The notes under the pieces were generated by a model, which ran no database searches, was not told the DNA's origin, and saw only the letters and a program-made list of their open reading frames with translations. A program made the translations under genes and the position numbers. Below are positions 1 through 46,134 of a DNA stretch of 64,000 nt, in pieces; position 1 is the stretch's first letter, and the number at the start of each line of letters is the position of its first letter. The DNA is taken from assembly GCF_030013595.1 (NCBI RefSeq), contig NZ_CP122768.1. The stretch is one strand, 5' to 3'. The stretch comes from Escherichia coli (GTDB lineage Bacteria; Pseudomonadota; Gammaproteobacteria; Enterobacterales; Enterobacteriaceae).

Positions 1-678
1 TGAGATTGGATTGCTTTTAGTCAGCCTCTTATAGCCTAAAGTCTTTGAGTGACTAGATGACATATCATGTAAGTTGCTGATAGGTTTCCAGTTTTCCGCT
101 CCTAGGTCTGCATATTGTACTTTTCCTCTTACTCGACTTAACCAGTACCAACCCAGCTTCTCAACGGATTTATACCATGGCACTTTAAAGCCAGCATCAC
201 TGACAATGAGCGGTGTGGTGTTACTCGGTAGAATGCTCGCAAGGTCGGCTAGAAATTGGTCATGAGCTTTCTTTGAACATTGCTCTGAAAGCGGGAACGC
301 TTTCTCATAAAGAGTAACAGAACGACCGTGTAGTGCGACTGAAGCTCGCAATACCATAAGTCGTTTTTGCTCACGAATATCAGACCAGTCAACAAGTACA
401 ATGGGCATCGTATTGCCCGAACAGATAAAGCTAGCATGCCAACGGTATACAGCGAGTCGCTCTTTGTGGAGGTGACGATTACCTAACAATCGGTCGATTC
501 GTTTGATGTTATGTTTTGTTCTCGCTTTGGTTGGCAGGTTACGGCCAAGTTCGGTAAGAGTGAGAGTTTTACAGTCAAGTAATGCGTGGCAAGCCAACGT
601 TAAGCTGTTGAGTCGTTTTAAGTGTAATTCGGGGCAGAATTGGTAAAGAGAGTCGTGTAAAATATCGAGTTCGCACAT
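1..678 (-). CDS. tnp: IS10 transposase, N-terminal ~226 codons (rest lies beyond window start)
   Basis: ATG at 676-678 (minus strand), translation begins MCELDILHDSLYQFCPELHLKRLNSL; frame stays open to position 1; not in the ORF track because it has no in-window stop. Confidence 0.88.
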   Translation of the reverse strand, partial: MCELDILHDSLYQFCPELHLKRLNSLTLACHALLDCKTLTLTELGRNLPTKARTKHNIKRIDRLLGNRHLHKERLAVYRWHASFICSGNTMPIVLVDWSDIREQKRLMVLRASVALHGRSVTLYEKAFPLSEQCSKKAHDQFLADLASILPSNTTPLIVSDAGFKVPWYKSVEKLGWYWLSRVRGKVQYADLGAENWKPISNLHDMSSSHSKTLGYKRLTKSNPIS

Positions 679-739
679 CTTGTTGTCTGATTATTGATTT
701 TTCGCGAAACCATTTGATCATATGACAAGATGTGTATCC
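671..739 (+). ncRNA. IS10 antisense RNA-OUT (placed by offset from the IS10 end)
   Basis: Opposite strand to the tnp start; 9-bp stem ACATCTTGT (675-683) pairs with ACAAGATGT (724-732); corresponds to IS10 bp 115 to 47 from the outside end. Confidence 0.5.
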
Positions 740-745
740 ACCTTA
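711..745 (-). promoter_or_regulatory. IS10 transposase promoter pIN region with Dam methylation site
   Basis: GATC at 716-719 sits at IS10 bp 67-70, where the Dam-regulated -10 of pIN is known to lie; placed by offset, not by promoter scoring. Confidence 0.4.
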
Positions 746-785
746 ACTTAATGATTTTTACCAAAATCATTAGGGGATTCATCAG

Positions 786-25928: not shown

Positions 25929-26157
25929 AATCAGGATGAGCTCCTTTTGACCAATCCCAGGAAAATTCTGCGTATTTTACCGGGTAATTGCGCAATGGAC
26001 AGTTAGGATATGTTCGAAAAAACAGCAAAAAGCACGATTTCATCTATCTTTGTGCTGTGAAAGTTAATAGTGCACTTGCACTTGAGGTAATCGGCAAATA
26101 CTCTTAGTGAGTAAATGTTTGCCGTGGTGGCAAGGTGTTAGAACAACAGAGAATATA

Positions 26158-27144: not shown

Positions 27145-27205
27145 TACACTTAAGGCAAATTAACTCCTCTTCGAACCCCCGCTTGTCGGGGGTTTTTAGC
27201 ATTGA

Positions 27206-29230
<2,025 letters not shown>

Positions 29231-29232
29231 AG

Positions 29233-29451
29233 ATGGAAAAAGAGCAGCTGATTGAAATAGCCAATACGATAATGCCGTTTGGCAAATACAAAGGGCGTCG
29301 CTTAATCGACCTACCGGAGGAGTATCTGCTGTGGTTTGCCCGCAAAGATGAGTTCCCGGCAGGGAAGCTCGGTGAGCTAATGCAAATCACGCTGCTGATT
29401 AAAACCGAGGGGCTGACGCAACTGGTCCAGCCCCTGAAGCGTCCGCTTTAA
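29233..29451 (+). CDS. ypeB: small protein YpeB
   Basis: 72-aa ORF starting 3 bp after ligA stop. Confidence 0.85.
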   Translation: MEKEQLIEIANTIMPFGKYKGRRLIDLPEEYLLWFARKDEFPAGKLGELMQITLLIKTEGLTQLVQPLKRPL

Positions 29452-30446
29452 GCTTTATCGGCGATGCTTTCCTGCTGCGCCTGTAACTGTTCGGTCTGGC
29501 GTTTGTATCGACGCGCCAGCACCGCACAGACCATCAATTGGATCTGATGGAAAATCATCAGAGGCAGCACCATCATACCGATCACCGATGTGGGGAACAG
29601 AATGTTTGCCATCGGGATGCCATTTGCCAGACTCTTTTTCGAACCACAAAAGACGATAGTAATTTCATCTGCTTTATTGAAGCCTAGTCGGCGTGCCATA
29701 AAGACGTTAACTACAATCACGATAGCCAGAAGAACGCAGCTGACCACCACGATAAACAGCAATGATCCCCAGCCAACTTTATGCCAGATACCATTAACAA
29801 CGGCTTCGCTGAACGCTGTATAAACCACCAACAGAATGGACGTCTGGTCAGTTTTCGCAATCCATTTTTTATTGCGCGACACCCAGTCACCAATCCACGG
29901 CCGGGAAAGATGCCCCAACACAAACGGCAGCAGCAGTTGCAGCATAATTTTACCGACCTGCTCAAGGCTGCCCCCTGCACCGTGAACATTCATCACCAGA
30001 CCAACCAGCAATGGTGAAAGGAAAATACCCAGCAGGCTCGATGCTGATGCAGAACAAACCGCCGCCGCAACGTTACCGCCCGCCATTGACGTGAAGGCGA
30101 TTGCAGACTGCACGGTAGCGGGGAGAATGCACAAGTAGAGAAAACCGGAGTAGAGCATCGGGTCGACATTTACCGGTTTCCACCAGGCAAACAGCACGCC
30201 CAGAATCGGAAACAATACGAAGGTGCTGCACATTACCCACAAATGCAGTCGCCAGTGCCCACCGCCAGCAATAATCGCCTCACGCGACAACTTCGCGCCG
30301 TGCATAAAAAACAGCAGGGCAATCGCTGCGGTGGTCAGATTTTCAAAGAAGGGGACGAAATCGCCTCTGGCCGGAAAGAAAGAGGCCAGCAACACCACCG
30401 TGATCAGGGTTAAGGTGAAAGGATCGAGGATACGAAAAAGTTTCAT
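29448..30446 (-). CDS. yfeH: putative membrane transporter YfeH
   Basis: 332-aa polytopic ORF (bile acid:sodium symporter-like by recollection). Confidence 0.85.
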   Translation of the reverse strand: MKLFRILDPFTLTLITVVLLASFFPARGDFVPFFENLTTAAIALLFFMHGAKLSREAIIAGGGHWRLHLWVMCSTFVLFPILGVLFAWWKPVNVDPMLYSGFLYLCILPATVQSAIAFTSMAGGNVAAAVCSASASSLLGIFLSPLLVGLVMNVHGAGGSLEQVGKIMLQLLLPFVLGHLSRPWIGDWVSRNKKWIAKTDQTSILLVVYTAFSEAVVNGIWHKVGWGSLLFIVVVSCVLLAIVIVVNVFMARRLGFNKADEITIVFCGSKKSLANGIPMANILFPTSVIGMMVLPLMIFHQIQLMVCAVLARRYKRQTEQLQAQQESIADKA

Positions 30447-30535
30447 AAAGACTCCAGATGATCGATGGTTCTATTGTGCTTCTTCCAGTTTGAGAAATAA
30501 AATTGATTTATTGCATCCATTCATGAAGAAAACAG

Positions 30536-31462
30536 ATGAATTATTCTTTAAAACAATTAAAGGTTTTCGTCACAGTAGCGCAGGAGAAAAGTTTTAGTCG
30601 TGCAGGAGAGCGTATCGGCCTGAGCCAGTCGGCAGTGAGTCACAGTGTGAAGGAGCTGGAAAATCATACTGGTGTTCGCCTGCTGGACAGAACCACGCGT
30701 GAAGTGGTGCTTACAGATGCAGGGCAGCAGTTGGCTTTGCGTCTTGAGCGACTGCTGGATGAACTTAACAGCACGTTGCGCGATACCGGGCGTATGGGGC
30801 AACAACTGAGCGGAAAAGTTCGGGTCGCTGCCAGCCAGACCATTTCCGCGCATCTTATTCCGCAATGCATTGCTGAAAGCCATCGCCGCTATCCAGATAT
30901 TCAGTTTGTCCTGCACGATCGTCCGCAGCAGTGGGTGATGGAAAGTATTCGCCAGGGAGATGTCGATTTTGGCATCGTCATCGATCCAGGCCCAGTGAGC
31001 GATCTGCAATGTGAAGCGATTCTTTCCGAGCCTTTCTTCTTGCTTTGCCATCGCGATAGCGCTTTGGCCGCGGAAGATTATGTACCCTGGCAGGCATTAC
31101 AGGGAGCGAAATTGGTGTTGCAGGATTACGCGTCAGGCAGCCGACCGCTGATTGACGCAGCGCTGGCGCGCAATGGTATTCAGGCGAATATTGTGCAGGA
31201 GATTGGTCATCCGGCGACGCTGTTCCCGATGGTAGCCGCAGGCATCGGCATCAGTATTCTTCCCGCACTGGCGCTACCATTGCCTGAAGGTAGCCCACTG
31301 GTGGTAAAGCGCATTACGCCGGTGGTGGAACGCCAGTTGATGCTGGTGCGCAGAAAGAACCGTTCACTTTCCACCGCCGCACAAGCGTTATGGGACGTGG
31401 TACGAGGCCAGGGCCGTGCGCTAATGGCTGGGCGGGAAGGGGAGCCGCTGTATCAGATATAG
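30536..31462 (+). CDS. yfeR: LysR-family transcriptional regulator YfeR
   Basis: 308-aa ORF; N-terminal LysR HTH ([38 protein letters not shown]). Confidence 0.9.
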
Positions 31463-31499
31463 AGCTATTCATACTGCCGGGAGCCCCGGCAGTAATCAA

Positions 31500-32264
31500 T
31501 CAGAAATTAAATTTGATGGAGTAGATTATTGCATCCTGGTAAAAATCTTCGCCCAGTTTGTCATCCGCATAACGATACTGAATCCCTGTGGTGATGTGTG
31601 AAGTTGCATTCCACCAAAGTGCGACGGCACCGTTCAGACCTTCTTTGCCGCCATTACCTGCCGCGTAGGTGGCATCACGATCAAACTCGTACTCGTTCCA
31701 GTTGGTGAGGGTGAATTTCTCATTGCCCAGCATAAAGCTGTAACCTGCAACCCAACCGGCTACATAGCCGTTGTCGCCAGTGTAATAGGTTTGATCTGTA
31801 TAACGCTTAGCAAAGAACGGTTTGAACCACCAACCGCTGCCGGTGAAATTGTAGCCGATCCCGTAAAGGAACATATCGTCATGGAAATTCACACGATTCG
31901 CAGAACCGTAGGTGCCATACGCATGCAAGTAGAGATTAAATCCGGTGTCACCCAGGTAAATACGGTTGGTATTTTTAAATGTATAACGCTGCTCGCTACC
32001 CGGTTTATCATGACGATCATTATAAAAGTTTTCCCAGTCGAAGAACCCGTACATTTCTCCCCAACTAAAGTTAGCGCCGCCTTCCAGTTCCAGATATCCA
32101 AAATCATCTTTGTGTGATTTGGTCGACGATTTCTCAGTGGTTCTGCTAGTCCAGTCAAGATAATGAATACCTATATCAGCAAAACCGCCTTTAAATTCTG
32201 CATGGGATACTGCTGGTATCGCCAATACAGAAGAGAGTGTCAGAGTAAAAAGATGTTTTTTCAT
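31500..32264 (-). CDS. yfeN: putative outer membrane protein YfeN
   Basis: 254-aa ORF; signal peptide MKKHLFTLTLSSVLAIPAVSHA; aromatic-rich with C-terminal ...YSIKFNF typical of beta-barrels. Confidence 0.88.
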   Translation of the reverse strand: MKKHLFTLTLSSVLAIPAVSHAEFKGGFADIGIHYLDWTSRTTEKSSTKSHKDDFGYLELEGGANFSWGEMYGFFDWENFYNDRHDKPGSEQRYTFKNTNRIYLGDTGFNLYLHAYGTYGSANRVNFHDDMFLYGIGYNFTGSGWWFKPFFAKRYTDQTYYTGDNGYVAGWVAGYSFMLGNEKFTLTNWNEYEFDRDATYAAGNGGKEGLNGAVALWWNATSHITTGIQYRYADDKLGEDFYQDAIIYSIKFNF

Positions 32265-32512
32265 AGCATAATTCCCTATGCCGATCGTTATTAGTTGATT
32301 GCTTAATAAAAAGGTTGATTAAAAGCGGCATATTGTTAATGCAAGGGAAAGGAGAGTACCAATACAGTTTTTTCAGCCTATTAATAGTGAAAAAATATAA
32401 ATATATCGATATCGAATAACTATCGGATACAAGAAAAAAGTGTATTGGTATGAGGTAGGGCAATCTCGTTATAAAAAGGCGTTAGATTCCACCCTACAAA
32501 AAAAGGATATAT

Positions 32513-33346
32513 ATGTCTCAGGCTCAGTTTTCTCATAACCAACTGTATTGCGTAGATATTATCAAGACTTATAAACCTGATTTCACGCCACGAGTGGCCT
32601 TTATTTTAGGTTCCGGGCTGGGCGCGCTGGCCGATCAGATTGAGAACTCGGTCGCAATTTCCTACGAAAAGCTGCCTGGGTTCCCGGTAAGTACCGTACA
32701 CGGTCATGCGGGTGAGCTGGTGCTGGGTTATCTTCAGGGGGTGCCAGTGGCGTGCATGAAAGGTCGCGGACATTTCTACGAAGGTCGTGGGATGACCATC
32801 ATGATGGATGCAATCCGTACCTTTAAGTTGCTGGGCTGCGAGTTGCTGTTCTGCACCAATGCGGCTGGCTCACTGCGTCCTGAAGTGGGGGCCGGCAGTC
32901 TGGTCGCATTGAAAGATCACATCAACACCATGCCGGGAACGCCGATGGTGGGTCTTAATGATGAACGTTTTGGTGAGCGCTTCTTCTCGCTGGCGAATGC
33001 CTACGATGCGGAATACCGCGCACTGTTACAAAAAGTGGCGAAAGAAGAGGGGTTCCCTCTGACGGAGGGCGTGTTCGTCTCGTATCCGGGTCCGAATTTC
33101 GAGACTGCGGCGGAAATTCGCATGATGCAAATTATTGGTGGGGATGTTGTTGGTATGTCTGTGGTGCCTGAGGTTATTTCTGCTCGCCATTGCGAACTTA
33201 AAGTCGTTGCGGTCTCTGCGATTACCAACATGGCGGAAGGTTTAAGCGATGTGAAATTGTCACATGCGCAAACGCTGGCGGCTGCGGAGCTCTCTAAGCA
33301 GAACTTCATCAACCTTATTTGTGGCTTTCTGCGCAAAATTGCCTGA
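32513..33346 (+). CDS. xapA: xanthosine (purine nucleoside) phosphorylase II
   Basis: 277-aa ORF of PNP family; followed by xapB and xapR. Confidence 0.92.
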   Translation: MSQAQFSHNQLYCVDIIKTYKPDFTPRVAFILGSGLGALADQIENSVAISYEKLPGFPVSTVHGHAGELVLGYLQGVPVACMKGRGHFYEGRGMTIMMDAIRTFKLLGCELLFCTNAAGSLRPEVGAGSLVALKDHINTMPGTPMVGLNDERFGERFFSLANAYDAEYRALLQKVAKEEGFPLTEGVFVSYPGPNFETAAEIRMMQIIGGDVVGMSVVPEVISARHCELKVVAVSAITNMAEGLSDVKLSHAQTLAAAELSKQNFINLICGFLRKIA

Positions 33347-33405
33347 GAAAAACAATAAGAAACGGCCTCGCGGGTGAGGCCAAATGATGCGACAAGGAAA
33401 CGATT

Positions 33406-34662
33406 ATGAGCATCGCTTTGCGCTTAAAGGTAATGTCCTTTTTGCAATATTTTATCTGGGGGAGCTGGCTGGTTACCCTCGGTTCTTACATGATTAATAC
33501 CCTTCATTTCACCGGCGCTAATGTTGGCATGGTTTACAGTTCCAAAGGGATCGCCGCGATTATTATGCCTGGTATAATGGGGATCATCGCAGACAAATGG
33601 CTGCGTGCAGAACGTGCATACATGCTGTGTCACCTGGTGTGTGCAGGCGTACTTTTTTATGCGGCATCCGTAACTGATCCGGATATGATGTTTTGGGTGA
33701 TGTTAGTCAATGCGATGGCGTTTATGCCGACTATTGCGTTATCGAACAGCGTCTCTTATTCCTGTCTTGCCCAGGCAGGGCTTGACTCGGTGACCGCTTT
33801 CCCGCCCATTCGCGTTTTTGGTACGGTGGGGTTCATTGTCGCCATGTGGGCAGTAAGCCTGCTGCATCTGGAATTGAGTAGTCTGCAGCTGTATATCGCG
33901 TCCGGTGCGTCATTGCTGCTGTCGGCTTATGCGCTGACTTTGCCGAAGATTCCGGTTGCGGAGAAAAAAGCGACTACATCGCTTGCCAGCAAGCTGGGTC
34001 TGGATGCCTTCGTGCTGTTTAAAAATCCACGCATGGCTATCTTTTTCCTCTTCGCCATGATGCTGGGCGCGGTGCTGCAAATTACCAACGTTTTTGGCAA
34101 CCCGTTCCTGCATGATTTCGCCCGTAATCCTGAGTTTGCTGATAGCTTCGTGGTGAAATACCCGTCCATTTTACTGTCAGTTTCACAGATGGCTGAAGTC
34201 GGTTTCATTCTGACGATACCGTTCTTTTTGAAGCGTTTCGGTATTAAAACCGTCATGCTGATGAGTATGGTGGCGTGGACGCTGCGCTTTGGCTTCTTCG
34301 CCTATGGCGATCCGTCAACAACCGGATTTATTTTGCTGCTGCTGTCGATGATTGTTTATGGCTGTGCATTCGATTTCTTCAATATTTCTGGTTCGGTATT
34401 TGTCGAACAGGAAGTTGATTCCAGCATTCGTGCCAGCGCGCAGGGCCTTTTTATGACGATGGTAAATGGCGTCGGCGCATGGGTTGGCTCGATTCTGAGC
34501 GGTATGGCAGTGGATTACTTCTCGGTGGATGGCGTAAAAGATTGGCATACCATTTGGCTGATGTTTGCAGGGTATGCTCTTTTCCTCGCAGTGATATTTT
34601 TCTTTGGGTTTAAATATAACCATGACCCTGAAAAGATAACGCATCGTTCAGTTACACATTAA
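33406..34662 (+). CDS. xapB: xanthosine MFS permease
   Basis: 418-aa polytopic ORF (NupG/XapB nucleoside:H+ symporter family). Confidence 0.92.
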   Translation: MSIALRLKVMSFLQYFIWGSWLVTLGSYMINTLHFTGANVGMVYSSKGIAAIIMPGIMGIIADKWLRAERAYMLCHLVCAGVLFYAASVTDPDMMFWVMLVNAMAFMPTIALSNSVSYSCLAQAGLDSVTAFPPIRVFGTVGFIVAMWAVSLLHLELSSLQLYIASGASLLLSAYALTLPKIPVAEKKATTSLASKLGLDAFVLFKNPRMAIFFLFAMMLGAVLQITNVFGNPFLHDFARNPEFADSFVVKYPSILLSVSQMAEVGFILTIPFFLKRFGIKTVMLMSMVAWTLRFGFFAYGDPSTTGFILLLLSMIVYGCAFDFFNISGSVFVEQEVDSSIRASAQGLFMTMVNGVGAWVGSILSGMAVDYFSVDGVKDWHTIWLMFAGYALFLAVIFFFGFKYNHDPEKITHRSVTH

Positions 34663-34714
34663 AAGGATTCGCAGCTCTGTTCCTTGGGGCTGCTTTTATG
34701 ATAAAGGTTAATTA

Positions 34715-34873
34715 GTGAAAGATATTTTATTTTCTTCTGGCGTTGGTTTTGGCATTGGTGCTTTGTTTACAATCGTGCGCTTGCCTATTCCTGTACCAAA
34801 TGTATTACCGGGTATATTATCCATTGTGTTTATGTATGTCGGATATCTGGTGGTGAAATACTTTATGCCATGA
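34715..34873 (+). CDS. candidate small hydrophobic protein (52 aa), XapX-like
   Basis: GTG 34715 preceded by AAGG about 8 nt upstream; MKDILFSSGVGFGIGALFTIVRLPIPVPNVLPGILSIVFMYVGYLVVKYFMP; stop TGA 34871-34873; lies between xapB and xapR; below the 60-aa track cut-off. Confidence 0.5.
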   Translation: MKDILFSSGVGFGIGALFTIVRLPIPVPNVLPGILSIVFMYVGYLVVKYFMP

Positions 34874-34913
34874 TAATTTAATACGATGTATTTATTATAT
34901 GGAGCACTTAATT

Positions 34914-35798
34914 ATGGAACGCGTATACAGAACAGATCTTAAGTTGCTCCGTTATTTTCTTGCCGTAGCGGAAGAGTTGCATTTTGGTCGCGCAGCAGCG
35001 CGTTTAAATATGTCTCAGCCTCCGCTCAGCATTCATATTAAAGAGCTGGAAAATCAACTCGGCACGCAGCTTTTTATTCGCCATTCGCGCAGCGTCGTAC
35101 TGACACACGCGGGCAAAATCTTGATGGAAGAATCGCGTCGATTGCTGGTGAATGCAAATAATGTATTGGCTCGGGTTGAACAAATAGGTCGGGGAGAAGC
35201 AGGGCGGATTGAACTCGGGGTTGTGGGAACGGCAATGTGGGGACGGATGCGCCCGGTTATGCGGCGATTCCTCAGGGAAAATCCTAACGTTGACGTTCTT
35301 TTTCGCGAAAAGATGCCCGCGATGCAAATGGCCCTGCTGGAACGACGTGAACTCGATGCCGGGATCTGGAGAATGGCGACAGAACCACCGGCAGGTTTTA
35401 CCAGCTTACGGTTGCATGAATCGGCGTTTCTGGTGGCGATGCCTGAAGAGCATCATCTCTCATCATTTTCCACCGTTCCGCTGGAAGCGCTACGTGACGA
35501 GTATTTTGTTACAATGCCGCCCGTGTACACTGACTGGGATTTTTTGCAGCGAGTTTGCCAGCAGGTGGGATTTTCACCGGTTGTTATTCGCGAAGTTAAT
35601 GAACCGCAAACGGTACTCGCCATGGTCAGTATGGGCATTGGTATCACATTGATAGCGGACAGCTACGCACAAATGAACTGGCCAGGTGTCATTTTCCGTC
35701 CGCTCAAACAGCGCATCCCTGCAGATTTATATATTGTTTATGAAACACAGCAGGTGACGCCCGCGATGGTTAAGCTGTTGGCTGCATTGACACAGTAG
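34914..35798 (+). CDS. xapR: LysR-family activator of xapAB
   Basis: 294 aa from ATG 34914 (MERVYRTDLKLLRYFLAVAEELHFGRAAARLNMSQPPLS...). Confidence 0.9.
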   Translation: MERVYRTDLKLLRYFLAVAEELHFGRAAARLNMSQPPLSIHIKELENQLGTQLFIRHSRSVVLTHAGKILMEESRRLLVNANNVLARVEQIGRGEAGRIELGVVGTAMWGRMRPVMRRFLRENPNVDVLFREKMPAMQMALLERRELDAGIWRMATEPPAGFTSLRLHESAFLVAMPEEHHLSSFSTVPLEALRDEYFVTMPPVYTDWDFLQRVCQQVGFSPVVIREVNEPQTVLAMVSMGIGITLIADSYAQMNWPGVIFRPLKQRIPADLYIVYETQQVTPAMVKLLAALTQ

Positions 35799-35875
35799 GT
35801 GAGGAGACAGGAATTGCCGGAAATAGTAGTCTGCTAAGTGAAGCGCATCAGGCAATTTCGCAAATCGCAGATAGC

Positions 35876-35902
35876 AAAAAAGCGCCTTTAGGGCGCTTTT
35901 TT
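35876..35902. terminator. bidirectional intrinsic terminator (xapR / tRNA operon)
   Basis: AAAAAAGCGCC-TTTAG-GGCGCTTTTTT hairpin with A and T runs. Confidence 0.65.
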
Positions 35903-35906
35903 ACAT

Positions 35907-35982
35907 TGGTGGGTCGTGCAGGATTCGAACCTGCGACCAATTGATTAAAAGTCAACTGCTCTACCAACTGAGCTAACGACCC
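35907..35982 (-). tRNA. lysV: tRNA-Lys (anticodon UUU)
   Basis: Reverse complement reads GGGTCGTTAGCTCAGTTGGTAGAGCAGTTGACTTTTAATCAATTGGTCGCAGGTTCGAATCCTGCACGACCCACCA, 76 nt with encoded CCA. Confidence 0.95.
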
Positions 35983-35986
35983 GAAG

Positions 35987-36062
35987 TGGTGGGTGATGAC
36001 GGGATCGAACCGCCGACCCCCTCCTTGTAAGGGAGGTGCTCTCCCAGCTGAGCTAATCACCC
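35987..36062 (-). tRNA. tRNA-Val (anticodon UAC)
   Basis: Reverse complement reads GGGTGATTAGCTCAGCTGGGAGAGCACCTCCCTTACAAGGAGGGGGTCGGCGGTTCGATCCCGTCATCACCCACCA, 76 nt. Confidence 0.95.
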
Positions 36063-36108
36063 ACTTCGGTACTTCACATTTTTACAAGAAATTTAGCTGG
36101 CGAGAAAG

Positions 36109-36184
36109 TGGTGGGTGATGACGGGATCGAACCGCCGACCCCCTCCTTGTAAGGGAGGTGCTCTCCCAGCTGAGCTAATCACCC
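36109..36184 (-). tRNA. tRNA-Val (anticodon UAC), second identical copy
   Basis: Identical 76-nt sequence to 35987-36062, separated by a 46-bp spacer. Confidence 0.95.
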
Positions 36185-36442
36185 CCGCTGTGTGGAGTCG
36201 CATTATAGGGAGAGTTCAAAATGAGTCAACGCATTTTCTAAAGAAATTGTTCGTTCGTCGTAAATTTAAGCAAGATGATCGCAAAACAGACCGTTTTGCG
36301 CAATTTGTCAACGAAAACAATAATGCGTAAGGTTGCAACCCGAACTACATTGAGGAATCAGGCGGGAGTGATAGAATATCGCCCACTCAATTTTTCCAGG
36401 ATTTGCCGGTTGTCGGCATCTTTCTAAACGTAAGGCCATTTC

Positions 36443-37858
36443 ATGAAAATCAAAACTCGCTTCGCGCCAAGCCCAACAGGCTATCTGCACGTTGGCGGCG
36501 CGCGTACTGCTCTTTACTCCTGGCTTTTTGCACGTAACCACGGCGGTGAGTTCGTGCTGCGTATTGAAGACACCGATCTTGAGCGTTCCACGCCGGAAGC
36601 TATCGAAGCCATTATGGATGGCATGAACTGGCTGAGCCTGGAGTGGGATGAAGGTCCGTACTACCAGACCAAACGTTTTGATCGCTACAACGCGGTGATC
36701 GATCAGATGCTGGAAGAGGGCACAGCTTATAAATGTTATTGCTCTAAAGAGCGCCTGGAAGCGCTGCGCGAAGAGCAAATGGCGAAAGGTGAGAAGCCGC
36801 GTTATGACGGTCGCTGCCGCCACAGCCATGAGCATCATGCTGATGATGAACCGTGCGTTGTACGTTTTGCTAACCCGCAGGAAGGTTCTGTTGTTTTTGA
36901 CGATCAGATCCGTGGCCCGATTGAGTTCAGCAACCAGGAGCTGGATGATCTGATTATCCGTCGTACCGATGGTTCTCCAACCTATAACTTCTGTGTGGTG
37001 GTTGACGACTGGGATATGGAAATCACCCACGTTATCCGTGGCGAAGACCATATCAACAACACGCCACGCCAGATCAACATTCTTAAAGCACTGAAAGCGC
37101 CGGTACCGGTTTACGCGCACGTTTCTATGATCAACGGCGATGACGGCAAAAAACTGTCCAAACGTCACGGGGCGGTCAGCGTAATGCAGTATCGTGATGA
37201 CGGTTATTTGCCAGAAGCACTGCTGAACTATCTGGTGCGTCTGGGCTGGTCCCACGGCGATCAGGAAATCTTCACTCGTGAAGAGATGATCAAATACTTC
37301 ACCCTGAATGCCGTCAGCAAATCTGCCAGTGCGTTCAACACCGACAAGCTGCTGTGGCTGAACCATCACTACATTAACGCGCTGCCGCCGGAGTATGTTG
37401 CTACTCACTTACAGTGGCACATTGAGCAGGAAAATATCGATACCCGTAACGGCCCGCAGCTGGCTGATCTGGTGAAACTGCTGGGCGAACGCTGCAAGAC
37501 GCTGAAAGAGATGGCACAGAGCTGCCGTTATTTCTACGAAGATTTTGCTGAGTTCGATGCCGACGCCGCGAAAAAACATCTGCGTCCGGTAGCGCGTCAG
37601 CCGCTGGAAGTAGTTCGTGACAAACTGGCCGCGATTACTGACTGGACCGCTGAAAACGTTCATCACGCTATTCAGGCGACGGCGGATGAGCTGGAAGTGG
37701 GCATGGGTAAAGTTGGTATGCCGCTGCGTGTCGCCGTAACCGGTGCGGGGCAGTCTCCGGCGCTGGATGTTACCGTTCACGCAATCGGTAAGACCCGCAG
37801 TATCGAGCGTATCAACAAAGCGCTGGCTTTTATTGCTGAACGCGAAAATCAGCAGTAA
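36443..37858 (+). CDS. gltX: glutamyl-tRNA synthetase
   Basis: 471-aa ORF; class I motifs [12 protein letters not shown] (HIGH-type) and KLSKR (KMSKS-type). Confidence 0.95.
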
Positions 37859-37876
37859 TTAGCGCATAAAAGATAA

Positions 37877-37908
37877 ACGGCAGGAGAGATACCCCTGCCG
37901 TTTTTTAT
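37877..37908. terminator. intrinsic terminator after gltX (bidirectional with yfeD)
   Basis: ACGGCAGG...CCTGCCGT stem followed by TTTTTTATTT. Confidence 0.7.
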
Positions 37909-38301
37909 TTATTCTGATTCATCTATGTCGAGACGAGCAAGGAAATGACGAATTCCTTCGCGTGACAAAAATTGCGCAACTTTTTCCTGCTCACTGTGAG
38001 TCATATTGTCTATTGCGCTGATGATTTGCCGATAAGCAGGGGTGCGAATACCCGGTGCGTATTCGGCAAGGGGTTCTTCGGCTTCCAGAAGCATCGGTGT
38101 GTTATGGAAGGCTGGCGTGTTCTGAATAAACTCGCAAACTTGCGTATCGACCAGAATAAGTCTGGCACGACCGCCTTTCACGCCGGGAAATTTTTCCGTT
38201 TTCCAGCCTTTTTCTCTGATCCAACGGTTAACAGTTTGTTTAGCCACACCGAGGCATTCAGCCAGTTCTTCGGTGGTCATTTTATTGCGTAATCTTTTCA
38301 T
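37909..38301 (-). CDS. yfeD: putative DNA-binding protein YfeD
   Basis: 130-aa ORF (MKRLRNKMTTEELAECLGVAKQTVNRWIREKGW...); paralog of adjacent yfeC. Confidence 0.88.
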   Translation of the reverse strand: MKRLRNKMTTEELAECLGVAKQTVNRWIREKGWKTEKFPGVKGGRARLILVDTQVCEFIQNTPAFHNTPMLLEAEEPLAEYAPGIRTPAYRQIISAIDNMTHSEQEKVAQFLSREGIRHFLARLDIDESE

Positions 38302-38302
38302 A

Positions 38303-38647
38303 TTATTTGCTATCGCGAATCCCTAAGCGTTGTAACAATCCGATAATCCCTTCCCGCAGAAGCAAGGATGTAAACTGTTTTTGTTCAACTGGCGTCATCT
38401 CTTTCGCCAGTGTCACCAGCAATACTTCAAGCGGCGCATCACCAGAAAGGGCAGGCGCTTCTCCCTGACCTTCTGGACGTTCAGCATTGCGAATATATTC
38501 ACGAACCTGTTCATTGACGTGAACCAGTCGGGCTTTGCCACCCTGGACGCCAGGTTTTGGTGACGTTGTCCAGCCTTCCTTGCGTACCCATTTATTAATG
38601 GTCTGGCGGCTATAGCCGGTCAGTCTGGCAAGTTCATCTGGCGTCAT
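38303..38647 (-). CDS. yfeC: putative DNA-binding protein YfeC
   Basis: 114 aa from ATG 38645-38647 (MTPDELARLTGYSRQTINKWVRKEGW...); track ORF extends 5 codons further to 38662. Confidence 0.85.
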   Translation of the reverse strand: MTPDELARLTGYSRQTINKWVRKEGWTTSPKPGVQGGKARLVHVNEQVREYIRNAERPEGQGEAPALSGDAPLEVLLVTLAKEMTPVEQKQFTSLLLREGIIGLLQRLGIRDSK

Positions 38648-38882
38648 CCTCTCCTTGAACATAACAATTCCCTGAATGTATGTGGGTCTATTAGTAGTTC
38701 ATTTTATAACACCACTTTACAGGAAACCGTGACATGAATAACTACTGAATGCGAGCGGTTTTCCAAAATTGTTCATTTGCCTGATTTTTCAGCGATTGAA
38801 ACTACACGTTGCAATTTGCCGTTGACACATTCGGGCGGAATTCATATGATGCCGCCCGTCAACTCGACAAGCTTTACGTGAC

Positions 38883-38958
<76 letters not shown>

Positions 38959-38997
38959 AATTTTGCACCCAACAAATTTGGTACGTAAACGCATCGT

Positions 38998-39073
<76 letters not shown>

Positions 39074-39079
39074 AATTTC

Positions 39080-39110
39080 AAACCCTCGCTGTAAAGCGGG
39101 GGTTTTTTGT
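39080..39110 (+). terminator. intrinsic terminator after tRNA-Ala pair
   Basis: CCCTCGCTGTAAAGCGGGGG hairpin followed by TTTTTTG. Confidence 0.65.
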
Positions 39111-39280
39111 CTCTGCTTTTTGCCGCTTTTGTAATACAGTCTACGTCCGGGTTAGCGCCGCCTGGTGAAAACATCATTGGATGAAAAATCGGCAACAGGC
39201 TGGCCTCTGTTTGCTTCGCGATGCGAATAAACTTATTATTTGTGTGCCTGAAAACCCCGATCAGTGAGAGTAGTGTACTC

Positions 39281-41470
39281 ATGTTTGTGGAGCATAACCT
39301 GATAAAAAATATCAAGATATTCACACTAGCGTTTACGCTCACCGTGGTACTTATTCAGCTATCCCGTTTTATTTCGCCACTTGCCATTATCCATTCCAGT
39401 TATATCTTTCTGGCGTGGATGCCACTGTGCGTAATGCTGTCAATCTTGTTTATCTTTGGCTGGCGCGGTGTCGTTCCCGTTTTATGCGGGATGTTTTGCA
39501 CCAATCTGTGGAACTTTCATCTCTCTTTTTTACAGACTGCGGTCATGCTCGGCAGCCAGACGTTTGTCGTGTTGTGTGCCTGCGCAATATTACGCTGGCA
39601 GCTGGGGACGCGTTGGCGTTATGGATTGACCAGCCGATATGTCTGGCAACGTCTTTTCTGGCTTGGTTTGGTGACGCCTATCGGCATCAAATGCAGCATG
39701 TATCTTGTGGGGAGCTTTTTTGATTTCCCGCTAAAGATATCCACCTTTTTCGGCGATGCGGATGCCATTTTCACAGTCGTTGATTTACTAAGCCTTTTCA
39801 CCGCTGTGCTGATTTACAACATGCTTTTCTACTATCTCACTCGCATGATTGTAAGTCCCCACTTTGCGCAGATATTGTGGCGCAGGGATATCGCTCCGTC
39901 GTTGGGCAAAGAGAAACGCGCATTTACCTTAAGCTGGCTGGCAGCGTTAAGCGTGCTGCTACTTCTGCTGTGCACACCGTATGAAAATGACTTTATTGCC
40001 GGTTACCTGGTGCCCGTTTTCTTCATTATCTTCACCCTCGGGGTCGGTAAGCTCCGCTATCCGTTTTTAAATCTCACCTGGGCTGTTTCAACGCTTTGCC
40101 TTCTGAATTACAACCAGAACTTTTTGCAAGGGGTGGAAACCGAATATTCGCTGGCATTTATTCTCGCGGTGCTAATTTCCTTTAGCGTTTGCCTGCTCTA
40201 TATGGTGCGCATTTATCATCGCAGTGAATGGCTTAATCGCCGCTGGCATTTGCAGGCGCTGACCGATCCGTTAACGCTCCTACCCAACTTTCGTGCGTTA
40301 GAACAAGCGCCGGAGCAAGAGGCGGGCAAGAGTTTTTGCTGCCTGCGCATTGATAATCTTGAGTTTATGAGTCGTCATTACGGCTTAATGATGCGCGTTC
40401 ACTGTATCCGATCAATTTACCGTACGCTGCTGCCGTTGATGCAGGAAAACGAAAAGTTGTATCAATTGCCGGGTAGTGAACTGCTGTTAGTGCTGAGTGG
40501 ACCGGAAACGGAAGGGCGACTCCAGCATATGGTTAACATCCTGAATAGTCGGCAAATTCACTGGAACAATACCGGGCTGGATATGGGCTATGGTGCTGCC
40601 TGGGGGCGTTTTGATGGAAATCAGGAAACCCTGCAACCCTTGTTGGGGCAGTTAAGCTGGCTGGCGGAGCAATCCTGCGCACATCATCATGTGCTGGCGC
40701 TGGATAGCAGAGAGGAGATGGTTTCCGGGCAGACCACTAAACAGGTGCTATTGCTGAATACCATTCGCACGGCGTTAGATCAGGGGGATTTGCTGCTCTA
40801 CGCCCAGCCAATTCGCAACAAAGAGGGTGAAGGTTATGATGAGATCCTCGCGCGACTGAAATATGACGGCGGCATTATGACCCCGGATAAGTTTCTGCCC
40901 CTTATTGCTCAGTTTAACCTTAGCGCGCGTTTTGATTTGCAAGTGCTGGAATCCTTGTTGAAGTGGCTGACAACACACCCTTGCGACAAAAAAGGTCCGC
41001 GCTTTTCAGTCAATTTAATGCCGCTCACGCTGCTGCAAAAGAATATTGCCGGGCGGATTATTCGTCTGTTTAAGCGTTATCACATCTCCCCGCAGGCGGT
41101 CATTCTTGAGATCACCGAGGAGCAGGCGTTTTCTAACGCAGAAAGCAGCATGTACAACATCGAGCAACTGCATAAGTTTGGTTTCCGGATTGCGATTGAT
41201 GACTTTGGCACCGGCTATGCCAACTACGAACGGTTAAAGCGTTTGCAGGCTGATATCATCAAAATTGATGGCGTCTTTGTGAAAGATATTGTCACGAATA
41301 CGCTGGATGCGATGATTGTGAGATCAATTACCGATCTGGCGAAAGCGAAGTCATTGAGTGTGGTCGCGGAGTTTGTCGAGACGCAACAGCAGCAGGCGCT
41401 ATTGCATAAGCTCGGGGTGCAATATCTGCAAGGGTATTTGATTGGTCGCCCGCAGCCATTAGCTGATTAA
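39281..41470 (+). CDS. pdeA: c-di-GMP phosphodiesterase (membrane sensor domain plus degenerate GGDEF plus EAL)
   Basis: 729 aa from ATG 39281 (MFVEHNLIKNIK...); multi-TM N-terminus; EAL-domain segment ...VILEITEEQAFS... Confidence 0.88.
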   Translation: MFVEHNLIKNIKIFTLAFTLTVVLIQLSRFISPLAIIHSSYIFLAWMPLCVMLSILFIFGWRGVVPVLCGMFCTNLWNFHLSFLQTAVMLGSQTFVVLCACAILRWQLGTRWRYGLTSRYVWQRLFWLGLVTPIGIKCSMYLVGSFFDFPLKISTFFGDADAIFTVVDLLSLFTAVLIYNMLFYYLTRMIVSPHFAQILWRRDIAPSLGKEKRAFTLSWLAALSVLLLLLCTPYENDFIAGYLVPVFFIIFTLGVGKLRYPFLNLTWAVSTLCLLNYNQNFLQGVETEYSLAFILAVLISFSVCLLYMVRIYHRSEWLNRRWHLQALTDPLTLLPNFRALEQAPEQEAGKSFCCLRIDNLEFMSRHYGLMMRVHCIRSIYRTLLPLMQENEKLYQLPGSELLLVLSGPETEGRLQHMVNILNSRQIHWNNTGLDMGYGAAWGRFDGNQETLQPLLGQLSWLAEQSCAHHHVLALDSREEMVSGQTTKQVLLLNTIRTALDQGDLLLYAQPIRNKEGEGYDEILARLKYDGGIMTPDKFLPLIAQFNLSARFDLQVLESLLKWLTTHPCDKKGPRFSVNLMPLTLLQKNIAGRIIRLFKRYHISPQAVILEITEEQAFSNAESSMYNIEQLHKFGFRIAIDDFGTGYANYERLKRLQADIIKIDGVFVKDIVTNTLDAMIVRSITDLAKAKSLSVVAEFVETQQQQALLHKLGVQYLQGYLIGRPQPLAD

Positions 41471-41480
41471 CAGGCGTAAA

Positions 41481-41512
41481 AAAACCGGGGAATTATCCCC
41501 GGCTTTTTTATG
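41481..41512. terminator. bidirectional intrinsic terminator between convergent pdeA and nupC
   Basis: AAAAAAACCGGGGAATTATCCCCGGCTTTTTT. Confidence 0.7.
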
Positions 41513-41519
41513 TATGGTC

Positions 41520-42722
41520 TTACAGCACCAGTGCTGCGATTGACGCAGACAGCACACTCACCAGGGTAGAGCCGTAAACCAGTTTCAGACCGAAGCGAGA
41601 AACCACGTTACCTTGCTCTTCATTCAGGCCTTTAACTGCACCTGCGATAATCCCGATTGAAGAGAAGTTAGCGAAGGAAACCAGGAACACAGAGATGATG
41701 CCTTCAGCACGCGGAGAAAGTGTAGAGGCAATTTTCTGCAGATCCATCATCGCAACGAACTCGTTGGAAACCAGTTTGGTCGCCATGATACTGCCCACTT
41801 GCAGTGCTTCACTGGAAGGAACACCCATCACCCATGCAATCGGATAGAAGATGTAGCCCAGGATGCCCTGGAAGGAGATGCTGTAGCCAAACCAGCCAGT
41901 CACGGTGGCAAACAGTGCGTTCAGCGCGGCGATCAGGGCGATAAAGCCGATCAGCATCGCGGCAACGATAATGGCGACTTTGAAACCTGCCAGAATGTAT
42001 TCACCCAGCATTTCGAAGAAGCTCTGACCTTCGTGTAGGTTGGACATCTGAATGTTTTCTTCACTGGCATCAACACGGTAAGGGTTGATCAGCGACAGCA
42101 CGATAAAGGTGCTGAACATGTTCAGTACCAGTGCCGCAACGACGTATTTCGGTTCCAGCATGGTCATGTATGCACCAACGATGGACATCGACACGGTGGA
42201 CATCGCCGTGGCAGCCATGGTGTACATGCGATTGCGGGAGATTTTGCCGAGGATATCTTTATAGGCAATAAAGTTTTCAGACTGACCCAGAATCAGGGAG
42301 CTGACGGCGTTAAAGGATTCCAGTTTGCCCATGCCGTTGACTTTGGAGAGCAGGAAACCAATTGCGCGGATAATCACCGGCAACACGCGAATGTGCTGGA
42401 GAATACCGATCAGTGCAGAGATAAAGACAATTGGGCACAGCACTTTCAGGAAGAAGAATGCCAGGCCTTGATCATTCATGCTACCAAAGACGAAGTTAGT
42501 CCCTTCGTTGGCAAATCCGAGCAGTTTTTCGAACATTTCGGAGAAGCCTTTCACGAAGCCTAAACCAACGTCGGAGTTCAGGAAGAACCACGCCAGTAAC
42601 ACTTCGATAACAAGCAGTTGAATAACATAACGGATACGAATTTTTTTGCGGTCGCTGCTTACCAGCAGTGCGAGAATCGCAACAACGGCAAGTGCCAGTA
42701 CAAAATGAAGGACGCGGTCCAT
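41520..42722 (-). CDS. nupC: concentrative nucleoside:H+ symporter NupC
   Basis: 400 aa from ATG 42720-42722 ([20 protein letters not shown]...); polytopic CNT family. Confidence 0.92.
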
Positions 42723-42987
42723 ATTTGCTCCAAATATGAGGCAGGTTAAATTTCCGTGCACATTCTATGTAACATGGTTAAGGAAAACGAGATCTGACAC
42801 ACACTATAATGACGTCCTGTGACAAGCTTCAAAAATAGTGAGCTGTCATACATTTCTGCTATGTTGTGTATGGAAGCTGAAAGTTATGTAAATGTGCTAA
42901 CATTAAACATAACCATAACATTCAAGTCATCAATCTTTTCGTAGTCATAATCCTGGTCTATCAGAGAAATCACCACAATCCATTTAA

Positions 42988-43046
42988 ATGAATTTGATAA
43001 TCATTCTCGTTTGGCATAGCATGAAACATAGCAAAGGCTATGTTTT
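42988..43046 (+). promoter_or_regulatory. mntH operator region: Fur-box-like and MntR-box-like sites
   Basis: AATGAATTTGATAATCATTCTC (Fur-like, about 42988-43009) and palindrome AAACATAGCAAAGGCTATGTTT (43024-43045) just upstream of mntH ATG 43058. Confidence 0.55.
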
Positions 43047-43048
43047 AG

Positions 43049-44296
<1,248 letters not shown>

Positions 44297-44323
44297 TTGA
44301 ATGAGCGTCGCATCTGGCACTAT

Positions 44324-44412
<89 letters not shown>

Positions 44413-44436
44413 ATTGTGCTCCATTGGCAAATGTGT

Positions 44437-44763
44437 TTAATGGCGGTGTCCATGTCCGCGGCCTTTTCCGCGATGATCGTCACGATCGCGCCAGCCTTCA
44501 CGATAGCCACGCTCATACGCTTTACGCTTATCCCAGCCACGATGGTAGCCATTATCATGACGCCACCAGCGGTTCTTACGCCATTCATAATTGCGATGCC
44601 AGTAGTCACGGTCGCGCCAGTGACCACCGTCCCAGTAATTACCGTAATGATCGCGATCGCCAATTTGTAATTTGATTGATGGCAGTAGGGTGATTTCACC
44701 TGCGTTTGCCGCAAGCGGGGTAAATGCCATCAGGGCGGCCGCCAGAAACAGTGACCTGAACAT
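44437..44763 (-). CDS. ypeC: secreted low-complexity protein YpeC
   Basis: 108-aa ORF; signal peptide [21 protein letters not shown]; mature part rich in R/D/H/W/Y repeats ending [10 protein letters not shown]. Confidence 0.85.
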
Positions 44764-44877
44764 TGTTATTCTCCTTCACGATCGAAGCCGTCAGCGGCCT
44801 GTTAACGCAATATTACGGGGAGGTAAAGCCCCGTATCATCGCCATAACTCTTAAATCATAAAGGAGAGCATTTTTTG

Positions 44878-46134
44878 CTAAACGTTATCGTGGGGTGGCT
44901 GTTGCTTCGGACGATTGACCATCATCATCGGCTTACCTGCTAATAACAGCCATGCCGGAAGCATGACGATACAGAGCAGCGGTAGCAATGTGGTATTGGG
45001 TACAACGACTGCCGCCATAAAAAGACTTAACCAGCCATCGCGTGTTACCACCAGCACGATGCCGAGAATAGCGCAGGAAACGGTTATTGCCGCTGGAACG
45101 GCGGGAACGTGCTCATGCAGCATCAACCCTAATGCCACGCCGACAAACACTGCCGGGAAGATTCGCCCACCGCGAAAGCCACTGGCGGCAGCAACGACCA
45201 GGGCGGCAAGTTTAATTACCGCCAGCAAAAAGTAATCGCTGGTGCTGAAAGCCTGATTTGCCACCATCTGCTGCATCTCATCCAGCCCTTTAAACAGCGA
45301 AACTGGTCCACCAATAACCCCCAGAATACCGAGAATAAATCCGCCAATACCCAGCACGAGCACCGGATTTTTCATTTGATGCATCATCGCGTGCAACCGT
45401 GGTAAGCACCATACGGCGACCATCCCTGCTGCGATGGCAATCGCCGCGACAATTGCACCGCTGAGAATATCGGTCATTTCCATTTGTCCGTAATGCGCAA
45501 TGGGCAGTGAAAAATGGGGATGGAAAAATAATCCGGTAGTAAGTGCACCAGCTGCTGCCGCCATTAACGGCGCAAAAAGACGATCCCATAGCGGAACTTC
45601 ACTACTACCATTTAAGGTTTGCGAAAATATCAACGCCGCCGCAACAGGTGTGCCAAACAGCGCGCCGATGGTTCCGGCAGAGGCTAAAATAGTCCACTCC
45701 ATTCGGTTGACGCGCGGTAACAGACGAGCGCCAATGGCAACCGCAAGGGCGATATTGACGGTCATGATCGGATGTTCTGGCCCCAGGCTGACGCCACCAG
45801 CAAGACCAAGAATTAATGCTACGATAAGTCCTGGTAGCGCAGAGGGCGGAACTGGTGCGCCGATCAGCGGTTCACAGGCGGGGTCTGGTCCGGCATGACC
45901 CTGGCTGAAACGGATAACCAACCCCACCGCAATACCTGTTAGCGTTAATATGGCGATGATCCAGAAAGGTGAATCCTGAGCTATCCCCAGAGTTCCCGGC
46001 AGTCGTTGCCAGAGCAAATTCTGTAATACCGAGGCGATTTTCATCACCACAATCAGAATAAGACTGGACGCAATCCCAATTGCCACGGCGGGGAGCGATA
46101 ATAACAACATGGTTCTGGCTCGCGGATGGAGCAT
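44878..46134 (-). CDS. yfeO: putative ion channel/transporter YfeO (ClC-like)
   Basis: 418-aa polytopic ORF. Confidence 0.85.

What the first reader, a model, noticed from the sequence alone, without database searches (positions are those of the whole stretch)
35907..36184. tRNA cluster carries two tRNA-Val copies rather than the three I recall for K-12
The minus-strand cluster upstream of gltX contains tRNA-Lys plus two identical tRNA-Val(UAC) genes. As I recall, the K-12 reference has three Val copies (valU, valX, valY) before lysV. A change in tandem copy number would be a simple unequal-recombination event, but it alters tRNA gene dosage.
Basis: partly seen in the sequence, partly recalled or inferred. 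Interest (0 to 1): 0.25.

Follow-up and report, generated by a model that had tools for sequence, protein, structure and literature searches.

The report
Two-copy valU tRNA operon variant
This E. coli-like genome carries two instead of the usual three tandem valine-tRNA genes next to gltX, a small copy-number variant that also occurs in about 5% of finished E. coli genomes (including the common lab strain BW25113), so it is real but ordinary.

Summary
On the minus strand lie tRNA-Lys(UUU) 35907-35982 and two identical tRNA-Val(UAC) genes, 35987-36062 and 36109-36184. They sit between xapR and gltX. K-12 MG1655 has valU-valX-valY-lysV at this locus. Compared with MG1655, the window lacks exactly 120 bp: one 76-bp Val gene plus the 44-bp valU-valX spacer. 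It keeps the 46-bp valX-valY spacer. The promoter, the CTTC Val-Lys junction, lysV and the terminator are unchanged, so this is an intact operon with one gene fewer. The pattern fits recombination or slippage between identical 76-bp direct repeats.

I surveyed 5,426 complete E. coli genomes:
- 4,984 have the standard three-copy start.
- 95 have the window's arrangement; these include BW25113, J53, ABU 83972 and an ST131 strain.
- 201 have the reciprocal two-copy form, which keeps the 44-bp spacer.
- 26 have one copy.
- Four-copy arrays also exist.

Published work already notes that BW25113 lacks valX. The whole valUXY-lysV unit is not among the ten tRNA units found essential in MG1655. The window also lacks the 157-bp RtT repeat unit that K-12 has after lysV, and 821 genomes share that state. 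Assembly collapse cannot be tested without reads. Verdict: a known, probably near-neutral polymorphism of low interest.

The parts
35907..35982 (-). tRNA-Lys(UUU), the lysV equivalent and last gene of the operon
   Evidence: ARAGORN; Rfam tRNA 79.2 bits; exact match to the K-12 lysV sequence, (window map).
35983..35986 (-). 4-nt Val-Lys spacer (CTTC on the transcribed strand), as between valY and lysV in K-12
   Evidence: Alignment A1; sequences; PMC4176162 describes the CUUC spacer.
35987..36062 (-). tRNA-Val(UAC), the copy next to Lys (valY equivalent)
   Evidence: ARAGORN; Rfam; exact match to the K-12 Val gene.
36063..36108 (-). 46-nt inter-Val spacer, identical to the K-12 valX-valY spacer ('sp2'); the 44-nt valU-valX spacer ('sp1') is absent
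   Evidence: Alignment A1; exact-match map.
36109..36184 (-). tRNA-Val(UAC), promoter-proximal copy. It corresponds to a valU/valX fusion: the 120-bp deletion junction lies somewhere inside these 76 identical bases
   Evidence: ARAGORN; alignment A1 (120-nt gap against MG1655).
36202..36229 (-). valU operon promoter, TTGACT-16 nt-TATAAT, identical to K-12, followed by a 17-nt stretch up to the first Val gene
   Evidence: Promoter scan, 11/12 match; exact match to the K-12 promoter string; the transcription start was mapped 9 nt upstream of valU in PMC4176162.
35876..35902 (-). Rho-independent terminator of the operon (AAAAAAGCGCCCTAAAGGCGCTTTTTT), present once here and twice in K-12
   Evidence: RNA fold -19.1 kcal/mol, z -4.2; exact-match maps.
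35864..35924 (-). Single copy of the 61-nt segment (lysV 3' end + terminator + CTATCTGCGAT). In K-12 it is duplicated and flanks an RtT element. The window therefore lacks that 157-nt repeat unit
   Evidence: Alignment A1; Rfam RtT RF00391 hit in K-12 L001:2860-2985 and L002 but none in the window; 821/5426 genomes share the RtT-less junction.
34899..35798 (+). xapR (LysR-type regulator), flanking gene convergent with the tRNA operon
   Evidence: Pfam HTH_1 + LysR_substrate; annotated xapR in matching genomes.
36443..37858 (+). gltX (glutamate-tRNA ligase), flanking gene divergent from the tRNA operon
   Evidence: Pfam tRNA-synt_1c + Anticodon_2; annotation.

Best explanation
The region is the normal E. 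coli valU tRNA operon in a two-Val-copy allele: promoter, Val, 46-nt spacer, Val, CTTC, Lys, terminator. It is most likely derived from the ancestral three-copy array (Val, 44-nt spacer, Val, 46-nt spacer, Val). The event would be homologous recombination or replication slippage between the identical 76-bp first and second Val genes, removing 120 bp. The operon should still be transcribed as one polycistronic RNA from the unchanged promoter. It should be cut by RNase P from the 3' end as described for K-12, yielding two tRNA-Val(UAC) and one tRNA-Lys per transcript instead of three and one. The expected effect is a modest drop in tRNA-Val(UAC) gene dosage, from five to four genes if the lysT operon is standard, with little or no fitness cost. 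Shown here: the anatomy, the exact 120-bp difference, the intact signals and the population frequencies. Inferred: the direction of the change, the recombination mechanism, expression and near-neutrality.
For: Anatomy:
- Two identical Val genes plus Lys.
- MG1655 has three Val genes.
- The alignment shows one clean 120-nt gap, with the retained spacer equal to the valX-valY spacer.
- Promoter intact and terminator intact.

Direction of the change:
- The two K-12 spacers are unrelated sequences.
- The two-spacer array is the start of the locus in 4,984 of 5,426 genomes.
- Duplicating a two-copy array would give identical spacers, as in E. coli C, not spacer 1 followed by spacer 2.

Recurrence:
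- 95 genomes carry the window's allele. They include the K-12 derivatives BW25113 and J53, ABU 83972, ST131 strain 751 and STEC 2013C-4538.
- 201 carry the reciprocal 122-bp deletion.
- 26 have one copy (TG1).
- 70 hold Val-sp2-Val-sp2-Val, and four-copy arrays are confirmed.

Literature:
- BW25113 lacks valX (PMC5053530).
- The valU operon is a single transcript processed 3' to 5' by RNase P (PMC4176162).
- valUXY-lysV is not among the 10 essential tRNA units in MG1655 (PMC11480407).
- tRNA genes commonly vary by plus or minus one copy among E. coli strains (PMC4539685).
- A spontaneous metT/metU recombination deleted the intervening tRNA genes on a plasmid (PMC5400242).
Against: - No reads are available, so a collapsed third copy in this assembly cannot be excluded.
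- The source genome is not in the collection. The best 20-kb match is 98.3%, so the state of its closest relatives is unknown.
- The nearest relatives at this locus carry different two-copy forms: 98198 keeps spacer 2, while 13P477T and MS1679 keep spacer 1. Inheritance versus a fresh event is therefore unresolved.
- Expression, tRNA levels and fitness were not measured.
- The rest of the genome's Val(UAC) genes (the lysT operon) lie outside the window.
Confidence: 0.9

Rival explanations
1. Assembly artefact: the real genome has three Val copies and the assembler collapsed one 120-bp repeat unit.
For: - The Val genes are 76-bp perfect repeats, a situation in which short-read assemblers can drop a unit.
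- No reads are available to check.
- Some of the copy-number calls in public assemblies may themselves include such errors.
Against: - The repeat is only 76 bp and the two spacers are distinct sequences. Ordinary 150-nt reads span each junction.
- The identical allele appears in 95 finished genomes, including more than 20 BW25113-family assemblies and two separate ABU 83972 assemblies.
- The allele is reported in the literature for BW25113 (PMC5053530).
- The junctions in the window are clean and match those genomes base for base.
Confidence: 0.07
2. The two-copy state is ancestral in this lineage, and the three-copy array of K-12 arose by duplication.
For: - Expansion does happen at this locus. 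E. coli C has Val-sp2-Val-sp2-Val and four-copy arrays exist.
- The closest relatives over 20 kb all have two copies.
Against: - A duplication of a two-copy array produces identical spacers. The standard array has two unrelated spacers.
- The standard array is found in 92% of genomes.
- Both single-spacer two-copy forms exist, which is what two alternative deletions from a spacer-1/spacer-2 array predict.
- Within K-12, MG1655 has three copies, BW25113 two and TG1 one. Changes therefore occur on laboratory timescales.
Confidence: 0.02
3. Adaptive dosage tuning: the loss of a Val gene (and of the RtT unit) was selected to adjust the tRNA pool or operon output in this lineage, rather than being neutral repeat turnover.
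For: - Recurrent independent changes at the locus.
- One experimental-evolution study lists the valY/lysV region among those with biased mutation histories, though not significant after correction (adjusted P 0.21) (PMC10195153).
- tRNA gene copy number can respond to selection in Pseudomonas fluorescens (PMC7661048 and PMC10954465, titles and abstracts only).
Against: - Copy number goes both up and down, and all variants are rare, as expected from mutation-drift at a repeat.
- BW25113 is used as a wild type.
- The whole unit is not among the essential tRNA units in MG1655 (PMC11480407).
- No association with lineage or habitat is visible in the sampled rows.
Confidence: 0.03

Closest known systems
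valU-valX-valY-lysV operon of E. coli K-12 MG1655 (b2401-b2404)
   Same: Same chromosomal position between gltX and xapR. Identical promoter, Val gene sequence, 46-nt spacer, CTTC junction, lysV and terminator.
   Different: One Val gene plus the 44-nt spacer (120 bp) is missing. The 157-nt RtT unit with the second terminator copy downstream of lysV is also missing.
E. coli BW25113 / Keio parent allele ('lacks valX')
   Same: Identical promoter-Val-46 nt-Val-CTTC-Lys arrangement. 100% identity over window:35907-36244 and confirmed by annotation and mapping. Documented in PMC5053530.
   Different: BW25113 keeps the RtT element and the duplicated terminator after lysV. The surrounding K-12 sequence differs from the window: MG1655 differs from the window at four positions in the gltX-valU intergenic region, and no record matched the 20-kb query at more than 98.3% among the best 25 listed.
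E. coli O25b:H4-ST131 strain 751 and ABU 83972 locus
   Same: Strain 751 has the same full architecture as the window: xapR, about 110 nt, Lys, Val, 46 nt, Val, gltX, with no RtT. ABU 83972 carries the two-copy allele and aligns colinearly over 20 kb; its RtT state was not checked directly.
   Different: About 97.5% identity over 20 kb. In strain 751, two mismatches in the spacer and one in the terminator.
Other tandem tRNA arrays with copy-number variation (for example glyV-glyX-glyY; metT/metU recombination on a plasmid)
   Same: Identical tandem tRNA genes serve as substrates for homologous recombination, giving gain or loss of single copies (PMC4539685; PMC5400242).
   Different: Different genes and loci. 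Those cases were not analysed here.

Membership tests
E. coli valU tRNA operon (valU-valX-valY-lysV transcription unit) | Located between gltX and xapR, divergent from gltX | tested here: met
   gltX at 36443-37858 (+), xapR at 34899-35798 (+), tRNAs on the minus strand between them. Same order as in K-12.
E. coli valU tRNA operon (valU-valX-valY-lysV transcription unit) | Sigma-70 promoter TTGACT-16-TATAAT and short leader directly upstream of the first Val gene | tested here: met
   Scan hit 36229..36202 with 11/12 matches. Exact match to the K-12 promoter string. Promoter activity itself was not tested.
E. coli valU tRNA operon (valU-valX-valY-lysV transcription unit) | tRNA-Val(UAC) and tRNA-Lys(UUU) genes identical to K-12, joined by CTTC | tested here: met
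   Exact matches; alignment.
E. coli valU tRNA operon (valU-valX-valY-lysV transcription unit) | Three tandem Val genes separated by a 44-nt and then a 46-nt spacer | tested here: not met
   Only two Val genes and only the 46-nt spacer. This is a copy-number allele of the operon, not the reference form.
E. coli valU tRNA operon (valU-valX-valY-lysV transcription unit) | Rho-independent terminator immediately after lysV | tested here: met
   Hairpin of -19.1 kcal/mol followed by U6. Identical to the K-12 terminator string.
E. coli valU tRNA operon (valU-valX-valY-lysV transcription unit) | Single polycistronic transcript processed 3' to 5' by RNase P | not testable with these tools
   Known for K-12 from PMC4176162. 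Inferred here from identical signals.
BW25113-type two-copy allele (120-bp loss, 46-nt spacer kept) | Contiguous leader-Val-46 nt spacer-Val-CTTC-Lys | tested here: met
   Full-length single HSP at 100% identity to BW25113-family and other genomes. 95 of 5,426 genomes.
tRNA (Rfam RF00005) | Covariance-model score above the gathering threshold; cloverleaf with anticodon | tested here: met
   79.2 and 65.9 bits against a threshold of 29. ARAGORN anticodons ttt and tac.
RtT element (Rfam RF00391) downstream of lysV | Match to the RtT model between lysV and xapR | tested here: not met
   No RtT hit in the window. K-12 and 2013C-4538 score 47.3 and 52.2 bits against a threshold of 45.
Assembly-collapsed tandem repeat | Excess read depth over the repeat, or reads containing the missing 44-nt spacer | not testable with these tools

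The most novel reading that the evidence does not exclude
The valU array may be a fast-switching, selectable dosage locus. Copy number from one to four Val genes, together with presence or absence of the RtT unit, would then be tuned by selection on the tRNA-Val/tRNA-Lys supply in particular lineages. On this reading the window's doubly contracted 'minimal' form reflects such tuning rather than neutral repeat turnover.
Probability: 0.04. Interest if true: 0.3.

Novelty: already known. Interest (0 to 1): 0.06.

Why it matters
It matters little biologically. One of about five tRNA-Val(UAC) genes is missing from an otherwise intact operon. The same allele sits in the widely used wild-type strain BW25113. 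The practical value is for annotation and comparison. A count of two Val genes here should not be flagged as an error or as a special trait, because copy number at this locus ranges from one to four among finished E. coli genomes. The survey made here (about 92% standard, 5.5% two-copy, 0.5% one-copy, and a few four-copy) gives a baseline for judging such calls. It also shows that short tandem tRNA arrays turn over even among K-12 laboratory descendants.

Tried and rejected
1. Counting alleles by '80% query coverage' with short spacer-junction queries failed. The tool joins separate pieces, and megablast aligns straight through the unrelated 44/46-nt spacers, so both queries gave 5,399 genomes. 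For the same reason the '95% identity, Val x2' rows are ordinary three-copy genomes, not two-copy ones. I switched to queries whose full-length contiguous HSP alone passes a very strict E-value. I checked examples by annotation and by exact-string mapping.

2. The terminator scan did not flag the lysV terminator. Folding and exact match to the K-12 terminator show it is there.

3. I tried to find the source genome. No complete E. coli genome matches 26-46 kb better than 98.3%, and none shares the IS10-eutB junction. The strain stays unidentified, and its close relatives could not be examined.

4. A first Pfam call failed on a wrong frame and was repeated.

5. I considered scanning the species-representative genomes for outgroup arrays. 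I judged it unnecessary because the unrelated spacers and the 92% frequency already indicate the likely direction. No protein-homology, structure or metagenome searches were relevant to a tRNA copy-number question.

6. After the classified classes, 83 of the 5,426 genomes remain unclassified. They could be, for example, spacer-1/spacer-1 arrays, divergent spacers or rearranged loci.

Full report
**Observation.** ARAGORN finds five tRNA genes in the window. Three lie on the minus strand at exactly the finding's coordinates:
- tRNA-Lys(UUU) at 35907-35982
- tRNA-Val(UAC) at 35987-36062
- tRNA-Val(UAC) at 36109-36184

Rfam's tRNA model confirms all three well above threshold. The two Val genes are identical. 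The flanking genes are a LysR-type regulator ending at 35798 (xapR) and glutamate-tRNA ligase starting at 36443 (gltX).

**What differs.** I aligned the window with MG1655 and with the best-matching genome, 2013C-4538. I also mapped features by exact string matching.
- MG1655 reads: promoter, Val, 44-nt spacer (sp1), Val, 46-nt spacer (sp2), Val, CTTC, Lys, terminator, RtT element, second terminator copy.
- The window reads: promoter, Val, sp2, Val, CTTC, Lys, terminator.

Two repeat units are therefore missing.
- The first is 120 bp: one Val gene plus sp1. Its junction lies somewhere inside the 76 identical bases of the promoter-proximal Val gene.
- The second is 157 bp downstream of lysV. 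In K-12 it consists of an RtT-family element (Rfam RF00391, 47.3 bits) followed by a duplicate of the last 18 nt of lysV and the terminator. The window has no RtT match.

Everything else is base-for-base the K-12 operon:
- the TTGACT-16-TATAAT promoter at 36229-36202
- the CTTC Val-Lys junction
- the terminator hairpin at 35876-35902, which folds at -19.1 kcal/mol (z -4.2)

**How common it is.** Simple coverage counts were misleading. The search tool joins pieces, and megablast runs through the unrelated spacers. I therefore designed queries for which only a full-length contiguous match passes a very strict E-value.

| Arrangement | Genomes (of 5,426) | Calls |
|---|---|---|
| Standard start: promoter-Val-sp1-Val-sp2-Val | 4,984 (91.9%) | 25 |
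| Window's allele: promoter-Val-sp2-Val-CTTC-Lys | 95 (1.75%) | 20 |
| Reciprocal two-copy allele keeping sp1 | 201 (3.7%) | 26 |
| Single Val gene | 26 (0.5%) | 27; TG1 verified in 44 |
| Starts promoter-Val-sp2-Val, not followed by Lys | 37 | 10 minus 20 |
| Unclassified | 83 | — |

One of the 37 was checked, and E. coli C is Val-sp2-Val-sp2-Val-Lys. Val-sp2-Val-sp2-Val occurs in 70 genomes in all. Four-copy arrays are confirmed in an O145 strain and in a record labelled DH5alpha.

The window's allele is found in several unrelated backgrounds:
- the K-12 derivatives BW25113, Keio strains and J53
- ABU 83972
- ST131 strain 751, whose full architecture equals the window's, including the absence of RtT
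- the STEC strain 2013C-4538

The RtT-less lysV-xapR junction is shared by 821 genomes.

These counts are of assemblies, not independent lineages. Laboratory strains are over-represented, and some records may carry assembly errors.

**Direction and mechanism.** sp1 and sp2 are unrelated sequences, and the sp1/sp2 array dominates. Duplicating a two-copy array would give two identical spacers, as in E. coli C, not sp1 followed by sp2. The simplest reading is that three copies are ancestral. The window's form then arose by recombination or slippage between the first and second Val genes, losing 120 bp. The 201 sp1-keeping genomes would have recombined between the second and third Val genes, losing 122 bp. 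This is inference from pattern; no experiment was possible. Within K-12 descendants alone, three copies (MG1655), two (BW25113, J53) and one (TG1) occur. Changes therefore happen on laboratory timescales. An analogous spontaneous recombination between metT and metU, deleting the tRNA genes between them, is reported on a plasmid (PMC5400242).

**Function.** In K-12 the operon is one transcript of about 438 nt that starts 9 nt upstream of valU. [quoted passage not shown] All signals are identical in the window. I therefore infer the same pathway, yielding two Val and one Lys per transcript. K-12 has five tRNA-Val(UAC) genes (PMC4176162), so the loss is about one fifth of gene dosage if the lysT operon, which lies outside the window, is standard. 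In MG1655, 33 of 43 tRNA transcription units could be deleted, and valUXY-lysV is not among the ten essential ones. Most non-essential deletions showed minimal growth effects (PMC11480407). BW25113, which 'lacks valX' (PMC5053530), serves as a standard wild type. A near-neutral effect is therefore the best expectation, though it was not measured.

**Rivals.**
- *Assembly collapse* cannot be excluded without reads. It is unlikely, because the repeat is only 76 bp with distinct spacers and the identical allele recurs in many finished genomes.
- *Two-copy ancestral state* is contradicted by the spacer logic above.
- *Adaptive dosage tuning* is not excluded, but there is no positive evidence for it. 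Copy number moves both up and down, and every variant is rare.

**Comparison with what is known.** This is the E. coli valU operon, and it meets every tested defining feature except the number of Val genes. It matches the already documented BW25113-type allele. Variation of plus or minus one copy among E. coli strains is described in general terms (PMC4539685). I rate it 'already known'.

**Source strain.** No complete E. coli genome matches 26-46 kb better than 98.3%. The eut region is 99.0-99.9% identical to several strains, among them ATCC 11775 and NU14. The closest relatives at the locus all have two Val copies but of both kinds: 98198 keeps sp2, while 13P477T and MS1679 keep sp1. Whether the window's state was inherited or arose independently is open.

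**Verdict.** This is an ordinary, already known copy-number polymorphism of low interest.

Noticed in passing
window 1-785 and 786-1343: The left edge of the window is one end of an IS10-type element. RNA-OUT (RF00240) lies at 671-740, the terminal repeat ends at 785, and the transposase N-terminus is on the minus strand at 678..1. The element abuts a eutB fragment that begins at position 264 of the 435-position Pfam EutB profile, so eutB (ethanolamine ammonia-lyase large subunit) is interrupted. None of the 5,426 complete E. coli genomes shares this junction.
   Followed up: partly
window 35864-35924 (compare L001:2830-3016): The window lacks the 157-nt unit that K-12 has after lysV: an RtT-family element plus a second copy of the lysV 3' end and terminator. 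This is a second repeat contraction in the same operon. The RtT-less junction is shared by 821 of 5,426 genomes.
   Followed up: yes
L003, L009, L010, L011 (valU locus in other genomes): Copy number of the Val array in finished E. coli genomes ranges from one (TG1) to four (O145 RM9873-C1, and a record labelled DH5alpha). E. coli C has three copies with the 46-nt spacer twice. The 'DH5alpha' record (CP026085, 4.83 Mb) has an FlxA-like gene where K-12 has xapR, so it may not be a true K-12 derivative.
   Followed up: partly
window 38883-39073: Two tandem tRNA-Ala(GGC) genes lie on the plus strand downstream of gltX, where I recall K-12's alaX-alaW pair to be. I did not compare this pair with K-12 or with other genomes.
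   Followed up: no
window about 36288 (alignment A1 column 163): There is a single-base difference (A instead of C) in the gltX-valU intergenic region. It is not seen in K-12 or 2013C-4538. No complete genome is 100% identical over window:35963-36330 (best 99.7%).
   Followed up: no
window 26000-46000 versus 786-2400: Similarity to known genomes is uneven. The eut segment is 99.9% identical to two pig isolates, but the xap-gltX-ligA 20 kb reaches only 98.3% to any complete genome. This suggests a mosaic or poorly sampled lineage.
   Followed up: no
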